Below, in pieces: positions 9,001 to 18,000 of a stretch of DNA of 64,000 nt. Source of the DNA: Okamejei kenojei (taxonomy: Eukaryota). Where the stretch lies: positions 58,342,001-58,406,000 of the forward strand of contig CM069146.1 in assembly GCA_035221665.1 (NCBI GenBank), read 5' to 3'. A program made the position numbers. Position 1 is the stretch's first letter. Each line of letters opens with the position of its first letter.

Positions 9001-12000
9001 TTGTAAGCAATCTGTGGAATTCTTTGCCACAGAAGGCTGTGGAGGCCAAGTTAGTGGATATTTTTAAGGCAGAGATAGATAGATTTTTGATTAGTACGGG
9101 TATCAGAGGTTATGGGCAGGAGAATAGGGTTAGGAGGGAGAGATAGATCAGCCATGATTGAATGGCAGAGTAGACCTGATGGGCCGAATGGCCTAATTCT
9201 ACTCCTATCATTTATGACCTCATAAAATGCTCCACCATTGTATTTCTAGGCCAGTGTTTTCATTCAATATTAACCATGATTCTTAAAGAAAAGAGCTTGT
9301 CAGTTAAAAGGAAAATTCCCCAATGCATGGGATAATAACTGAAAGAACAGAACTAGCAGCAATCAGCATAAATTGACATAATTACATATGTTTGTAATTA
9401 TTGTCTTTCTACTGACTGGTCAGCACGCAACAAACATTTTTCACTGTACCTAAGTACACGAGACAATAAACTCAACTAAACAATGCAACTAGAGAGCCAT
9501 TGCCTCAATGTTTTCAATGTGCAGGGCACCTGAGACCGCGTCTCCCAGCAACACCAGGCAACTCGCCAGTGAATACAATAAAAATGGGAGGATGTTACTT
9601 TACAGCATTGTTCCTTTAGCCAAGATCCAGTTGTAGTTTTGTCTCTTTCGCCATTCGTCTTTTCGCCCAGAGTACTCAAGGAGGTGGACCTAGAAATCAT
9701 GGATGATTGGTGATCATTTTCCAATGTTCTATAGACTCTGGATCAGTTCTGGACGGGTGGGAAACTAATGTAACTCCACTTTTTAAAAAAGGAGGAAGAG
9801 AGAAAACGGGGAATTATAGACCAGTTAGCCTTACATCGGTAGTGAGGAAGATACTTCAGTTGATTATTAAAGAGGTAACAGCAGTACATTTGGAAAGCAG
9901 TGATCGGATCGTCAAAGTCAGCATGGATTTATGATGGGGCAATCATGCTCGACTAACCTGGAATTTTTTGAGGATGTAACAAGTAGAATGGATAAGGGAG
10001 AGTCAATGGATGTGGTGTATCTGGACTTGGCAGAATTAGAGCTCATGGTATTGGGGTTAGGGTATTGACATGGATAGAGAACTGGTTGACAGACAGAATG
10101 CATAGAGTAGGAATTAACGGGTCCTTTTCCTTACACGGTACACTGTGGATGGCTCGATTGTAATCGTGTATTGTCTTTCCGCTGACTGGTCAGCACGAAA
10201 CAAAAGCTTTTCACTGTACCTCAGTACACATGACAATAAACTAAACTGAACTGAACTGGAATATAGAACAGGACATCACCAAACAGGCCCTTTGGCCCAC
10301 AATGTCTATGCCAAACACAATGCCAAGACCAACTCTTATGAACCTGCATATAATCCATATTCCTCCATTCTCTGCATATCCACGTGCCTATCCAAAAGTA
10401 TTTTAAATACCGCTATTGTATCTGCTTCCACCACCACTGCCCATGGCAACATGTTCCAGGCACCCACTACTCTCCTTATAATAAAAAAAATTAAAAAATT
10501 CCTCACACATCTTCAAACTTTGCCCCTCTCATCCTAAAGCTATGCCCTCTAGTATTTGATACTTCTATCCTGGGAATACATCAAAATTACAGAATCGATA
10601 ATTGGGCACTTCCTATAATGTTTAGATTAAAAACAAAATGTTTAATTCAATATCTCATACAAGATCACACCGCAAGAAGGCTATGCAAGATCAAAATTGT
10701 TGACCTAAGGGCACCCAATGAAGCTGAAAGATTGCCATGATCTGGTATCTTCAAGGGAAAATTGGGGCAATCCATGAGGTTCAAGTAAAGCTAACATAGC
10801 AAAGGATAAATGTTTTCAATCTTACAATTTTACTTCGGAGTCACGTGAGTGACTACGTGAAGAAGGCCCGCCTGGCGCTGGAGCGGCATTACGTCGACGC
10901 TGACGGCAGAAGCAGGAGCTGCACAGACAGCTCCTCGACAGCGGTAGGTTCGGAACCGGCAGGTAAGTGCAGTTGAAAAAATTTTTTAGGAAGTCTGCAA
11001 AACTCCGTGCCTGGTGGGTTGAACCAGGATTTTAAAGGTTTTAAAAAAAACAAAGTAAAAGTTTAAATTGAACAGAAATACTCTGTTAAAAACAACGGAG
11101 TTTTGAAAAGAACGTCCCAGGGGAATACCCAGCGATCGGGACGAGAGATTAATTACGGGGCCGGTTCCGATACTGGTACCGTTAAAAATACGGTAGAGAG
11201 GTTAAAATGCTCCACAATCTTTTGGTAGGAAATTTTAAAAGTCAGAAAGACTGTAATTTAAGAAGATAATAAATTTTGCGATATGGAGAAAGTACTCCAA
11301 AATATAAAAAAGAGACAAGGGTCACAGTACCCAAACAGTTCCCCAAAAAAGACCCTGAGGGGCTTGAATATACAAAATATGGCTATGTGCCAAATTGAGA
11401 ATTTGAAACTCCGGACCCAGGATTAGGGTGGAGGAAGTCTCTTTGGATATAATTCCAAGTGGATCAGGGCTGCAAAAGACAGACCCTGCAAGTGGTGATG
11501 TGAATTATGAATGCACACCACAAATAAAAAGAGAGGCCAGATGTGCCTGAGATAGCAAAATATTTTGCTATATCTAAAGGAAGTGGTGAGGCTATGGAAG
11601 AAAACCTAGCTGCCAACATTAATTATATGGTATCTCACCAACTTCAAGAATACGATAAAACTTTTATGTTTTATTAAAATATCAACGGTAAATCCGTTTA
11701 TAATATCCATGTCTCAAATAATATGAGATATAAGAAATACAATTTCAAAGTATTTCAAAATGGTGCAAATAAGTAATACTTTCAAAATAAAATAAATTGC
11801 CATCAGTTGTGGAGCTCAATGGGAAGAAATATATATAATTTACCAAATCTGCACTATAGGTTCGCAGATCAATACAAATCAGGATATATTAAACTCCTGA
11901 TTATTATGGAATAAACCTGCCTTATGATAAATTAAAGATATTAATTACAAAAGAACAGACTACTGATCTTTAAACTTTGGGGAAAACTATGATCCAATGA

Positions 12001-15000: not shown

Positions 15001-18000
15001 AATACATTCACAGGAATGGCACGGGATGAGCCACTCGAGCAAAGATGCAAGGCCGCAGGAGGCTGTAGATTACTGTTAAAGTAAAAAGGAACCAGTCATG
15101 GTGTCAGATTTAGACACGCAATGTTCGGTTCTCTATAATTGTTGCTTTGTCATGCCATAAAAATATATATATCAATTGGTATTTGCGATAAACTTGCCTT
15201 TCAATGGAAAGGGCATTACTTTCATTTTTTATAATGTGAAATATTTATCACATAACTTGAGGCAATGTTTGGGGAAAATGTGTTATTCGCTCGTTATTGT
15301 GTTAAATGAGCCGTACTGTCGTATGGAATAAATTCTACGACACGAAAAACACAGAAAGCTTCAAACTCTTCACGTAGTCACTCACGTGACTCCGAAGTAA
15401 AATTGTAAGATTAAACGAGAACTTACCAGTTCGAAGTTTGATCGTTATTTTATGAGGAGTTACGATGAGGGATTACGTGCCCTCCACTCCCCACCCTCAT
15501 AAAATGAATGATCATCTGGTAGTTCTAAATCTATGATGAGCCTTACTATCTTACTCCGGCTATTTTTGTGTTCTGTGTTTTTCATGCCGCTGCTTTGAAG
15601 TATGCCGTTCCAGCGCCAGGCGGGCCTTCTTCACGTAATCCCTCATCGTTACTCCTCATAAAATAACGATCAAACTTCGAACTGGTAATTTCTCGTTTAA
15701 TCTTACTATTACACAGCTCAGTAAAGTAATGGCATTAAATAAGTTAAATGCATAGGCTTTTAACTCTTTGTCGTGTCTCTTGCAGAATGACTCTGATTTC
15801 CTAAACACGATCCACGAAGCCTATCTACAGATATTCCTGAAGAATGTGGTTAACATTAAGTAATGAAGAGAGACACAGGAGTGAACATGAGTGCAAATTA
15901 TTAAAGATTGCTGCAATGAGCAACATGATGCTGTAAGCATTCAACACTTCACAATATTAGTTATCGGTCTGTACATTTATCCGGCAGTTTATCTCTACGA
16001 TAATTGGTATTTCTAGTTTAAACATTATAAGCACTTATGTGAAAGTTTGCCAAAATAATAAAAGTATGTGTGCATGTAGCGATGGTAACATACTACTCAA
16101 TGCCTTATGGTACAGAGAAGCTCATCAGCAAAAGACAGGTTTTACTTGTTTTGTTTCTTTTTCGTTTTGGTAAGAAACATTTCTAAAATTACTTGATTTT
16201 ATATGTCTAGTTTGTTCCTGTTTGAAAATGTGTCAGTGGCTTTGTCACCTTTTAATGCATAAAGTAAGCATTCATTTGAGTTTTTTTCTCTTAAAAGTAC
16301 AACAGTGTTTTAAAAGCAATAATATGTCATTGCTTAGATGCAGAGGAAGGTGTTTTAATCTGTTATTTTAAACATTTTCCATTTAATGTGAAATACTATA
16401 CAAATTTGTATAGAAGAGACAGACTTGTTGTATAAATAAAGGTAAATGAAAAAGTGAGCAGGATACTGAGGCCAATAGAAACATAGAAAATAGGTGCAGG
16501 AGTAGGCCATTCGGCCCTTCGAGTCAACACCGCCATTCAATATGATCATGGCTGATCATCCTAAATCAGTACCCCATTCCTGCTAGTGGATAGTAGCAAC
16601 TAAATCTCTCTCCTAACAATTGAGTGTGATCAGTTCAACACTGTCTCTGAATGCTCATTTTGCATTGTGGATCTGGTTATAGATGTGAACAGCAGCAATG
16701 ACATAAGCAGACTCAAAGTTACACCATATTCTAAACTAAATTAAACCTGCACATTTTTGCATGTTAATATCAGTTTCACTTGCTTATTCTTGGGATCAAA
16801 CTTATACCCAATTGTAACATCACCTCCTTACTTTATGGATAAACTGTCTATATTGCAGGTTACGGATACGTTAAAATCAAAAATAAACTGTCTATATTCG
16901 GATACGTTAAAATCAAAAATAAGTTTTCACAATTTGATAAATTTGTAACATTACTTGGTTTGTAATAGTCAAATTGGTTCCTAATTTCCCTGACAAACTA
17001 AGTATTTTGGTCATTAATTGGTATCGTGTTGTAAAATGTTCAAATTAATCAAAGTTACAAATCAAAATTTTGTTGTGAGAGATTTTCAATGTAAGAGAGG
17101 TGATCTATACGAATTTCTTCGGCAGTAGACTATTCAATTGGTGATTGTCTATTCGTGGTCTTGCGTAAAGACAGTAATAATAATACTGTTTAATTCAGTT
17201 GATGAAGTGAAACAAAGATTTCCGCTTGAACAATGTCTCGCTGCATGTATCTCAGTTGCTCAATAAAATTTAAAACCTTTTGTTATCTCACCAATGTCAG
17301 CTTTATTTCGTTAAACAAAGCCCAAAGATTGGATCTTGGATTTTCTGATTATATTATCTTTACTGGAAGCTTAGTGTCAATAGTTCTGATAACATTAATT
17401 CGATAATTTTTATTTTTTTTAAATATATTTTTATTAGAAACAAACACACATTATGGTAAAAACATTTCATATATATCAATCATACATTATTAATATTATC
17501 AATTATGGATTCATTCTGCTTCTATTTAAAAAAAATATATAGATAGAATGTAATAAAGAAAGGAAAAAAACATAAATGTCAAGATAAAAAAAGAATGGAA
17601 TGATTTACTAAGAAGACATCATTGAAGATGGGTTAGAAGATTATAAAGTATAACTTTTCATCTAATCCTGAGTTCATGTTTCAGTTAGGTTCCCGTGCCG
17701 AACCAATCTACCCCTTCAAATAATCGATGAATGAAGACCATATTCTAACAAAAAGTTCTTGTTTGTCCATTAAGACAAATCTGATTCTTTCCAGGTGTAG
17801 GGTCTCCGACATTTCCATAATCCACATTTTAATTGTGGGGGTTATAGGGCCTTTCCAAAATGTTAATATTAATTTTTTCCCAGTTATTATACTGTAGTCT
17901 AGAAAGTTTCTTTGGCTTGTTGTGAGTGTTAAACTTTGCTCTGATATTCCAAGTATTATCAATTTTGAGTCTGAATCCAATTTAGTATTAACAACTTCAG

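What the first reader, a model, noticed from the sequence alone, without database searches (positions are those of the whole stretch)
10818..15706. DIRS retrotransposon with pristine cis-termini but ruined genes: a probable non-autonomous family
Seen: ITRs match 35/36; the ICR matches the left end 46/46 and the right extension 65/67, with many CpGs preserved. The 4.5-kb interior is AT-rich, full of stops and frameshifts, and shows only ghost motifs (YLDY for YLDD, NNTTAVAYVN, YR fragments), plus microsatellites and an old repeat insertion. Known: DIRS replication copies the ends via the ICR into a circular intermediate integrated by a tyrosine recombinase. Inference: this copy inserted recently, long after its ORFs died, so it was mobilised in trans. 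That would make it a large non-autonomous DIRS derivative, a class rarely described.
Basis: partly seen in the sequence, partly recalled or inferred. Interest (0 to 1): 0.72.

Follow-up and report, generated by a model that had tools for sequence, protein, structure and literature searches.

The report
Dead DIRS retrotransposon with fresh ends
A 4.9-kb jumping-gene copy of the DIRS type keeps its end structures almost perfectly but has no readable genes, so it was most likely copied by enzymes borrowed from a working relative, a known kind of parasitism that is seldom documented for this type of element.

Summary
The terminal architecture is real and is textbook DIRS1-like. The left end is 46/46 complementary to the first ICR half. 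The right end is 73/75 complementary to the second half. There are imperfect ITRs, a right extension, and an 8-nt junction core found at both ends and once in the ICR.

The 3.8-kb interior has no coding capacity. It carries 311 stops in the three sense frames, and 0 of 96 open stretches hit RT, RNase H, methyltransferase or recombinase models.

CpG content splits the element sharply. The ends have o/e 1.1-1.2. The interior has 0.34, the same as the host flanks. The first 389 nt have no ATG and fold unusually well.

So the ends were last templated long after the interior decayed. That fits mobilisation in trans.

Whether a family exists could not be tested. No genome of the host was available, and the 64-kb window holds no second copy. 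A one-off chimera, and ends overwritten in place, remain open.

Non-autonomous DIRS elements are already known (TOC1). This is a new member of a known kind and of moderate interest.

The parts
10818..15706 (+). Whole DIRS1-like element, 4,889 nt (4,881 nt if the 8-nt junction core is counted once). The sense strand is +.
   Evidence: End/ICR complementarity. Core at both ends. The ICR lies near the right end, as in DIRS1-like elements (PMC8969392; PMC3266345).
10818..10863 (+). Left terminal segment complementary to the left ICR half. Its first 8 nt (10818-10825) are the junction core AATCTTAC.
   Evidence: 46/46 with 15367-15412. Core positions.
10827..10911 (+). Left ITR: divergent outer part about 10827-10850, conserved core 10851-10889.
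   Evidence: 72/82 plus 5 gap columns with 15581-15664. Core 37/39.
10912..11206 (+). CpG-rich, ATG-free, strongly folding 5' leader. The ATG-free stretch runs from 10810 to the first ATG at 11207.
   Evidence: 0 ATG against 7.4 expected. It is the longest ATG-free interval on the + strand of the window, and 0 of 3,131 sampled 389-nt windows lack ATG. RNA fold z = -5.2, against -2.5, -1.0 and -0.5 for three interior controls. CpG change point at 11188-11228.
11207..15017 (+). Decayed interior, given as one part. No gag, RT/RNase H/methyltransferase or recombinase gene can be delimited. Stops are near random density. It contains 1 internal duplication, 1 nested fragment of an unrelated short repeat and at least 3 microsatellite tracts.
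   Evidence: No protein homology.
15018..15366 (+). CpG-richer 3' non-coding stretch upstream of the ICR. Its left bound is soft: the change-point support is 14986-15286.
   Evidence: RNA fold z = -2.6. No protein match for its longest open stretch.
15367..15479 (+). Internal complementary region: left half 15367-15412, right half 15405-15479. The halves overlap on the 8-nt core 15405-15412.
15480..15580 (+). Spacer between the ICR and the right ITR. It is the loop of the ICR/right-terminus hairpin.
   Evidence: DNA fold of 15330-15720: -94.1 kcal/mol, z = -13.0, 0 of 100 shuffles as good.
15581..15664 (+). Right ITR.
15665..15706 (+). Right extension, complementary only to the right ICR half. 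It ends in the junction core 15699-15706.
   Evidence: The term 'right extension' is as defined in PMC3266345.
15707..15727 (+). Right flank (host DNA) that resembles the sequence following the core at the element's left end.
   Evidence: 12/21 identical, empirical p = 0.002; 15/30, p = 0.004. The left flank shows no such likeness (4/21).

Best explanation
This is a structurally complete DIRS1-like retrotransposon copy that encodes nothing. It was made by reverse transcription of a template that had already lost its genes, so the reverse transcriptase and tyrosine recombinase came from another element (mobilisation in trans). It is most likely one member of a non-autonomous lineage.

Shown: the ITR / ICR / right-extension / junction-core anatomy; the absence of coding capacity; the sharp age contrast between about 1.1 kb of end sequence and the 3.8-kb interior.

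Inferred from the published DIRS model (PMC3266345, PMC5633606): the transcript lacks the outermost ends. The ICR bridges and templates them, which gives a closed junction. A recombinase then crosses that junction with a matching host sequence, so both end/ICR duplexes are reset to identity at each cycle. In this copy the crossover lay within an 8-nt core shared by the junction and the target.

Inferred: only the ATG-free structured leader, the ICR and the termini are still under selection for being copied. The former coding part rides along.
For: The anatomy matches every structural criterion of DIRS1-like elements.

There is no coding capacity: 311 stops in 4,887 sense codon positions, and 0 of 96 open stretches hit retroelement families.

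The ends are young. 119 of 121 end/ICR positions are identical and 8 of 8 CpG pairs are kept. CpG o/e is 1.22 and 1.11.

The interior is old. Its CpG o/e of 0.34 and TpG+CpA o/e of 1.29 are indistinguishable from the host flanks (0.36-0.38 and 1.23-1.34). The two change points give a lnL gain of 35, and the 5' one is located to within 40 nt.

Two lesions look older than the end/ICR identity. One is an internal duplication with 8 mismatches plus 2 gap columns over 121-123 nt (Fisher p = 0.034 with the gap columns counted). The other is a nested repeat fragment 71-81% identical to 5 other places in the window.

The interior was once sense-strand coding, on indirect evidence. Stop triplets are depleted on the + strand (z = -5.6), against -1.6 on the - strand and -1.3 to -3.1 in the flanks. 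The + strand shows purine skew where the flanks show none. The 5' CpG boundary coincides with the first ATG after a 397-nt ATG-free leader. The leader folds at z = -5.2.

There is a precedent: TOC1 is called an active nonautonomous DIRS retrotransposon.
Against: Only one copy was seen, and none elsewhere in the 64 kb, so 'lineage' is inference.

The duplication clock is weak: p = 0.034 only when the 2 gap columns count as differences. The CpG-pair contrast gives p = 0.09.

No tool showed that the interior derives from DIRS genes.

Long-term selection on cis function alone does not obviously explain why about 50 CpGs in 1.1 kb all survived in a methylated genome. The sharp 5' boundary would also fit a recombination breakpoint.

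A full-length-sized dead passenger is unusual, since non-autonomous derivatives usually shrink.
Confidence: 0.42

Rival explanations
1. One-off chimera. Young ends from a currently active, coding DIRS1-like element were joined to the interior of an ancient dead copy, for example by template switching between two transcripts during reverse transcription. The product inserted here. It was still made in trans, but there is no long-lived non-autonomous family.
For: The CpG step at the 5' side is located to 11188-11228. The ends have undecayed CpG content as a whole, not in patches. An ATG-free leader is what a recently translated element would carry.
Against: The 5' step falls exactly at the first ATG (11207). 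Relaxed selection on a dead ORF predicts this, but for a random breakpoint it would be a coincidence. Two breakpoints are needed. Template switching in DIRS elements was not documented in the passages I read.
Confidence: 0.2
2. The interior never held DIRS genes. A short end-only derivative picked up unrelated AT-rich DNA, and the 'ghost motifs' are chance.
For: There is no homology in any search. One of the two Y[LI]D[DY] matches is a microsatellite artefact, and a single match has roughly a 10% chance.
Against: Stop-triplet depletion is strand-specific (z = -5.6 against -1.6) and there is purine skew on the sense strand only. The size of 4.9 kb is within the 3,974-6,283 nt range tabulated for autonomous elements. 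The two motif-like strings lie in the RT-then-RNase-H order.
Confidence: 0.1
3. An old autonomous copy decayed in place. Its ends and ICR stayed alike and CpG-rich because they are protected, by lack of germline methylation, by selection on a host function, or by conversion between the complementary segments.
For: The ICR and right terminus are only 152 nt apart and can pair, which could favour local conversion. The 5' 400 nt resemble a small CpG island.
Against: The left end and its ICR partner are 4.5 kb apart and only 46 nt long, yet they are 46/46 identical. Lack of methylation would not stop non-CpG substitutions. The flanks are strongly CpG-depleted (o/e 0.16-0.30 next to the element). 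There is no Rfam match or other sign of a host function.
Confidence: 0.1
4. The ends of an old resident copy were overwritten in place by ectopic conversion or recombination with a young relative.
For: It explains young ends around an old interior at one locus. DIRS-1 is reported to accumulate in existing copies, possibly through its recombinase.
Against: It needs two separate events that each stop exactly at the element's outer boundary. It also needs homology between a young donor and a heavily diverged recipient.
Confidence: 0.07
5. Assembly artefact: the ends of a young element were joined across unrelated sequence.
For: The window contains two N runs, so the assembly is not gapless.
Against: No N lies in or near the element. 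The flanks are unique in the window. The element has the expected size and order of parts.
Confidence: 0.03

Closest known systems
DIRS1-like retrotransposons (DIRS1 of Dictyostelium; vertebrate examples tabulated in PMC3266345, such as AcDIRS1 and XtDIRS2; Xenopus families in PMC9210276)
   Same: Imperfect ITRs. An ICR near the 3' end whose halves complement the two termini. A right extension. A short motif shared by both ITRs and both ICR halves. No target-site duplication in the usual sense. The part sizes fall within the tabulated ranges: here the divergent ITR is about 24 nt, the conserved ITR about 39-60 nt, the right extension 42 nt and the ICR halves 46 and 75 nt. The tabulated values include ICR halves of 36-67 and 44-88 nt and elements of 3,974-6,283 nt.
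   Different: There are no gag, RT/RNase H/methyltransferase or recombinase ORFs. The two ICR halves overlap by 8 nt instead of the 3-bp circular junction described, and the element does not begin and end with the common NTT trinucleotide.
TOC1 of Chlamydomonas reinhardtii
   Same: It is called an 'active nonautonomous DIRS retrotransposon' in the passage I read from bioRxiv 10.1101/2022.06.16.496473. That makes it a non-coding member of the tyrosine-recombinase retrotransposon order that moves with borrowed enzymes.
   Different: It is from a green alga, not a vertebrate. I saw no description of its termini. From recall only, they are not of the ITR/ICR type. No sequence comparison was possible.
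LARD / TRIM and pairs such as Dasheng-RIRE2 (non-autonomous LTR retrotransposon derivatives)
   Same: The logic is the same: intact cis termini around a non-coding interior, copied by an autonomous partner. LARD and TRIM are mentioned. For Dasheng/RIRE2 I saw only the title in a reference list.
   Different: Those have direct LTRs, DDE integrase partners and target-site duplications. This element has an inverted-repeat/ICR architecture and a tyrosine-recombinase partner.
Site-specific tyrosine recombination between an element site and a similar host site (att-type systems; general knowledge, recalled)
   Same: An identical core of 8 nt is shared by the element junction and the target, with partial likeness of one arm.
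   Different: It is seen in a single insertion only. The DIRS literature I read describes identity of 3 bp.

Membership tests
DIRS1-like retrotransposon | Inverted terminal repeats, which may be imperfect | tested here: met
   10827-10911 with 15581-15664, 72/82 plus 5 gap columns. Core 37/39.
DIRS1-like retrotransposon | [quoted passage not shown] | tested here: met
   15367-15412 with 10818-10863, 46/46. 15405-15479 with 15632-15706, 73/75. BLAST E-values are 1e-17 and 4e-31 within the window.
DIRS1-like retrotransposon | The two ICR halves overlap on a short circular junction whose complement begins and ends the element | tested here: met
   The core AATCTTAC is at 10818-10825, at 15699-15706 and, in reverse complement, at 15405-15412. 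It is 8 nt here, against 3 bp in PMC3266345.
DIRS1-like retrotransposon | Right extension complementary only to the right ICR half | tested here: met
   15665-15706 (42 nt) pairs with the ICR but lies outside the ITR alignment.
DIRS1-like retrotransposon | A motif of at least 10 nt shared by both ITRs and both ICR halves at the divergent/conserved ITR boundary | tested here: met
   An 18-nt direct repeat, 15367-15384 and 15628-15645 (89%). Its complements are in the left ITR and the right ICR half (rows D7, I2 and I3).
DIRS1-like retrotransposon | No target-site duplication | tested here: inconclusive
   The 8 nt repeated at both ends are also present once in the ICR, so they are element-borne rather than a duplicated target. 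One copy cannot separate the two readings fully.
DIRS1-like retrotransposon | ORFs for gag, RT/RNase H (with or without methyltransferase) and a tyrosine recombinase | tested here: not met
   0 of 96 open stretches hit these families. Nothing relevant. By anatomy this is therefore a DIRS1-like derivative, not an autonomous member.
Non-autonomous retrotransposon family | No coding capacity together with intact cis termini | tested here: met
Non-autonomous retrotransposon family | Ends last templated after the interior had decayed | tested here: met
   CpG contrast and change points. The nested repeat and the duplication are older than the end/ICR identity. The duplication test alone is weak (p = 0.034 with gap columns counted).
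Non-autonomous retrotransposon family | Several copies sharing the same non-coding interior and the same lesions | not testable with these tools
   No host genome was held. There are 0 further copies in the 64-kb window.
Non-autonomous retrotransposon family | An autonomous partner with matching termini in the same genome | not testable with these tools
   The reason is the same. Protein searches with open stretches of the end regions and the interior found no partner.

The most novel reading that the evidence does not exclude
A long-lived, full-length-sized non-autonomous DIRS1-like lineage in a cartilaginous-fish-like vertebrate. Selection would act only on about 1.1 kb of cis sequence: an ATG-free structured leader, the ICR and the termini. 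The 3.8 kb of dead coding sequence would be carried as a passenger. Its borrowed recombinase would choose targets that resemble the circle junction over an 8-nt core plus one arm. Integration would then be site-selective in the manner of att recombination, rather than needing only 3 bp.
Probability: 0.25. Interest if true: 0.55.

Novelty: new member of a known kind. Interest (0 to 1): 0.36.

Why it matters
If a family with these ends and this dead interior exists, it would mark by natural experiment which parts of a DIRS1-like element are needed in cis: about 400 nt at the 5' end and 400-700 nt at the 3' end. It would also show that DIRS elements of vertebrates support parasites of their own, which the papers I could search describe only for an alga.

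The copy also illustrates a method. In DIRS elements the end/ICR duplexes are reset at each replication cycle, so they give an internal clock. That clock can be compared with interior lesions without needing any other copy.

The 8-nt core and the one-sided likeness of the target to the junction hint at more target selectivity than the 3-bp rule. This rests on one insertion.

Tried and rejected
I went on with stop-free stretches only.

(3) I tried to fish DIRS proteins for a local comparison. The word-index search with the stretch carrying the RNase-H-like string found 2 candidates and none scored. The exhaustive HMMER search over 1.84 billion representatives gave 1 hit, a tandem-repeat ORF, which I rejected after Pfam. 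PDB searches with two stretches gave 0 hits at E<=10. The longest open stretch of the 3' CpG-rich zone gave 3 candidates and none scored. So no DIRS reference protein was ever in hand, and no collinear map of ghost domains could be made.

(4) I looked for a better-preserved DIRS elsewhere in the window. Of the 153 stop-free stretches of >=75 aa, I scanned 145. I left out 3 inside the element (already scanned) and 5 in a TG/CA low-complexity tract. Only LINE RT, Tc1/mariner and host-gene domains appeared.

(5) I considered whether the flanks are an old DIRS remnant, meaning an insertion into an older ICR. There is no significant flank-to-element similarity by BLAST (best E = 0.025, in AT-rich sequence). 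Only the 21-40 nt right of the core resemble the left end, so I rejected this as unsupported.

(6) Rfam and tRNA scans of the window found 0 matches.

(7) I ran bacterial-type promoter and terminator scans on the left end. They are not meaningful for a eukaryote, so I did not use them.

(8) I did not use the genome-contig scan, because that collection holds only bacteria and archaea.

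
Full report
WHAT IS THERE

The stretch 10818-15706 has the anatomy that two papers give as diagnostic of DIRS1-like elements: ITRs, and an ICR near the 3' end whose two halves complement the two termini (passages of PMC8969392, and PMC3266345).
- The left end 10818-10863 is the exact reverse complement of 15367-15412 (46/46). The 49-nt match reported has its one mismatch in the flank.
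- The right end 15632-15706 matches 15405-15479 at 73 of 75 positions.
- The ITRs pair as 10827-10911 with 15581-15664 (72/82 plus 5 gap columns). Their conserved core is 37/39.
- The last 42 nt are a right extension that pairs only with the ICR.
- An 18-nt motif recurs in both ITRs and both ICR halves, as PMC3266345 describes.
- The ICR / right-terminus hairpin folds at z = -13.

None of this is chance. The window-internal BLAST E-values are 1e-17 and 4e-31.

THE JUNCTION

The two ICR halves overlap by 8 nt, AATCTTAC. These 8 nt begin and end the element and occur once, in reverse complement, in the ICR. The paper describes a 3-bp junction.

The 21 nt to the right of the element match the sequence that follows the core at the left end at 12 of 21 positions (empirical p = 0.002). 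The left flank shows nothing comparable, at 4 of 21. So the target resembled the circle junction in the core and in one arm. This is a single insertion and I looked at it post hoc.

THE INTERIOR

- GC is 0.32.
- The three sense frames carry 92, 132 and 87 stops in 1,629 codons each.
- The longest open sense stretch, 83 codons, is no longer than in shuffles.
- There is one internal duplication of about 120 nt, one nested fragment of about 70 nt from a short repeat found in at least 12 other places in the window, and at least three microsatellite tracts.
- No gene can be delimited, so breaks cannot be assigned to genes.
- 0 of 96 stop-free stretches of >=30 aa hit RT, RNase H, methyltransferase or recombinase models at E<=1.

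The stretch with the RNase-H-like string found nothing real. The word-index search returned none. The exhaustive HMMER search returned one tandem-repeat ORF. PDB returned none.

Three indirect traces suggest a former sense-strand coding region:
- Stop triplets are depleted on the + strand (z = -5.6; -4.5 without the microsatellite part), against -1.6 on the - strand and -1.3 to -3.1 in the flanks.
- There is purine skew on the + strand only.
- The interior begins at the first ATG (11207) after a 397-nt ATG-free leader. This is the longest such interval in the window, with 0 ATG against 7.4 expected.

TWO AGES IN ONE ELEMENT

| Region | CpG o/e | TpG+CpA o/e |
|---|---|---|
| First 400 nt | 1.22 | 0.81 |
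| Interior | 0.34 | 1.29 |
| Last 689 nt | 1.11 | 1.03 |
| Host flanks | 0.36-0.38 | 1.23-1.34 |

(All values.)

A two-change-point model gains 35 lnL units. It places the steps at 11188-11228 and 14986-15286. The end/ICR duplexes differ at 2 of 121 positions and keep 8 of 8 CpG pairs.

The internal duplication differs at 8 positions plus 2 gap columns. Fisher p is 0.034 when the 2 gap columns count as differences. The CpG-pair contrast gives p = 0.09.

The nested repeat fragment is 71-81% identical to 5 relatives in the window, whereas the members of that family are 75-89% identical to one reference member.

If those lesions had arisen in place after insertion, the 121 duplex positions should have diverged far more than 2. 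In the published model the ICR templates both ends at each cycle. So the last cycle used a template that was already dead.

The leader also folds unusually well: z = -5.2, against -2.5, -1.0 and -0.5 for three interior controls, and -2.6 for the 3' pre-ICR stretch.

MECHANISM, AND WHAT STAYS OPEN

The best reading is a copy made with borrowed reverse transcriptase and recombinase. Whether it belongs to a standing non-autonomous lineage or is a one-off chimera of young ends and an old interior cannot be told from one copy. The coincidence of the 5' step with the first ATG favours relaxed selection on a dead ORF. The wholesale CpG richness of the ends favours a recent origin from a coding element. 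In-place explanations (protected ends, overwritten ends) are less likely, because the 46-nt left duplex spans 4.5 kb.

CONTEXT

The element lies between a DCP1A-like C-terminal exon (8078-8395) and a TKT-like gene (exon-bearing stretches from 31.7 to 43.5 kb), upstream of a GC-rich stretch at 22-23 kb.

I searched one exon-bearing stretch of the TKT-like gene on its own. Among the top 10 rows, the named species are mostly cartilaginous fishes: skates, chimaera and sharks. Named-species identities across the 120 listed rows run from 61 to 82%. I built no joined exon model. I do not take the window for human. DIRS elements are reported absent from mammals and present in chondrichthyans (passages of PMC4350176, and PMC5753468).

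LITERATURE

Four full-text searches for non-autonomous DIRS elements gave one explicit case, TOC1 of Chlamydomonas (passage), and none in vertebrates.

The Xenopus study reports degeneration of repeats and/or ORFs in 36 of 75 X. tropicalis families, and interrupted ORFs or incomplete repeats in 13 of 20 X. laevis families. In the passages I read it does not discuss mobilisation in trans. Its supplementary tables, which I could not see, may list families with intact repeats and broken ORFs. Subscription journals and Repbase reports were not searchable.

UNCHECKED

- No DIRS reference protein could be obtained, so no domain map of the interior was made.

Noticed in passing
window 10810-11207: This is the longest ATG-free interval on the + strand of the whole window: 397 nt, with 0 ATG against 7.4 expected. 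It ends at the first ATG of the element, exactly where CpG density drops.
   Followed up: yes
window 10818-10825, 15405-15412, 15699-15706 and right flank 15707-15727: The junction core is 8 nt instead of the 3 bp described for DIRS1-like elements. The right flank resembles the element's left-end sequence at 12 of 21 positions (p = 0.002). The left flank shows no likeness.
   Followed up: partly
inside window 11207-15017: One internal duplication of about 120 nt, 92% identical. Two of its 4 CpG sites have decayed in one copy only. I used it as an internal clock against the end/ICR duplexes.
   Followed up: yes
about 13 places in the window, e.g. 50295-50383, 40460-40535, 61569-61653, 34099-34188, 3149-3225: A repeat unit of about 85 nt, 75-89% identical between places and often in clusters or inverted pairs. 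Some copies lie near Tc1/mariner remnants, so it may be part of their terminal repeats or a derived MITE. One fragment is nested in the DIRS interior.
   Followed up: partly
window 1790-2185 (+) and 41607-42229 (-): Tc1/mariner transposase remnants. They hit HTH_Tnp_Tc3_2 (E = 1e-5 and 3e-16) and DDE_3 (E = 3e-11).
   Followed up: no
window 54428-55804 (+) and 51628-51948 (+): A LINE reverse-transcriptase ORF: RVT_1, E = 2e-35, 339 open codons followed by a further 119. By recall it is of the CR1/L2 type. There is also a second short RT fragment.
   Followed up: no
window 53600-54460: A TG/CA-rich low-complexity tract with strong GC skew (0.46 over 54-56 kb). It gives long spurious ORFs on both strands and lies beside an N run at 53666-53838.
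   Followed up: no
window 8078-8395 (+), 22000-23000, 31737-43471 (+): Host genes. There is a stretch with an mRNA-decapping-enzyme C-terminus (DCP1A-like). There is a GC-rich kilobase (GC 0.61) that may be a promoter CpG island. There are four stretches with transketolase domains, which match cartilaginous-fish transketolases best.
   Followed up: partly
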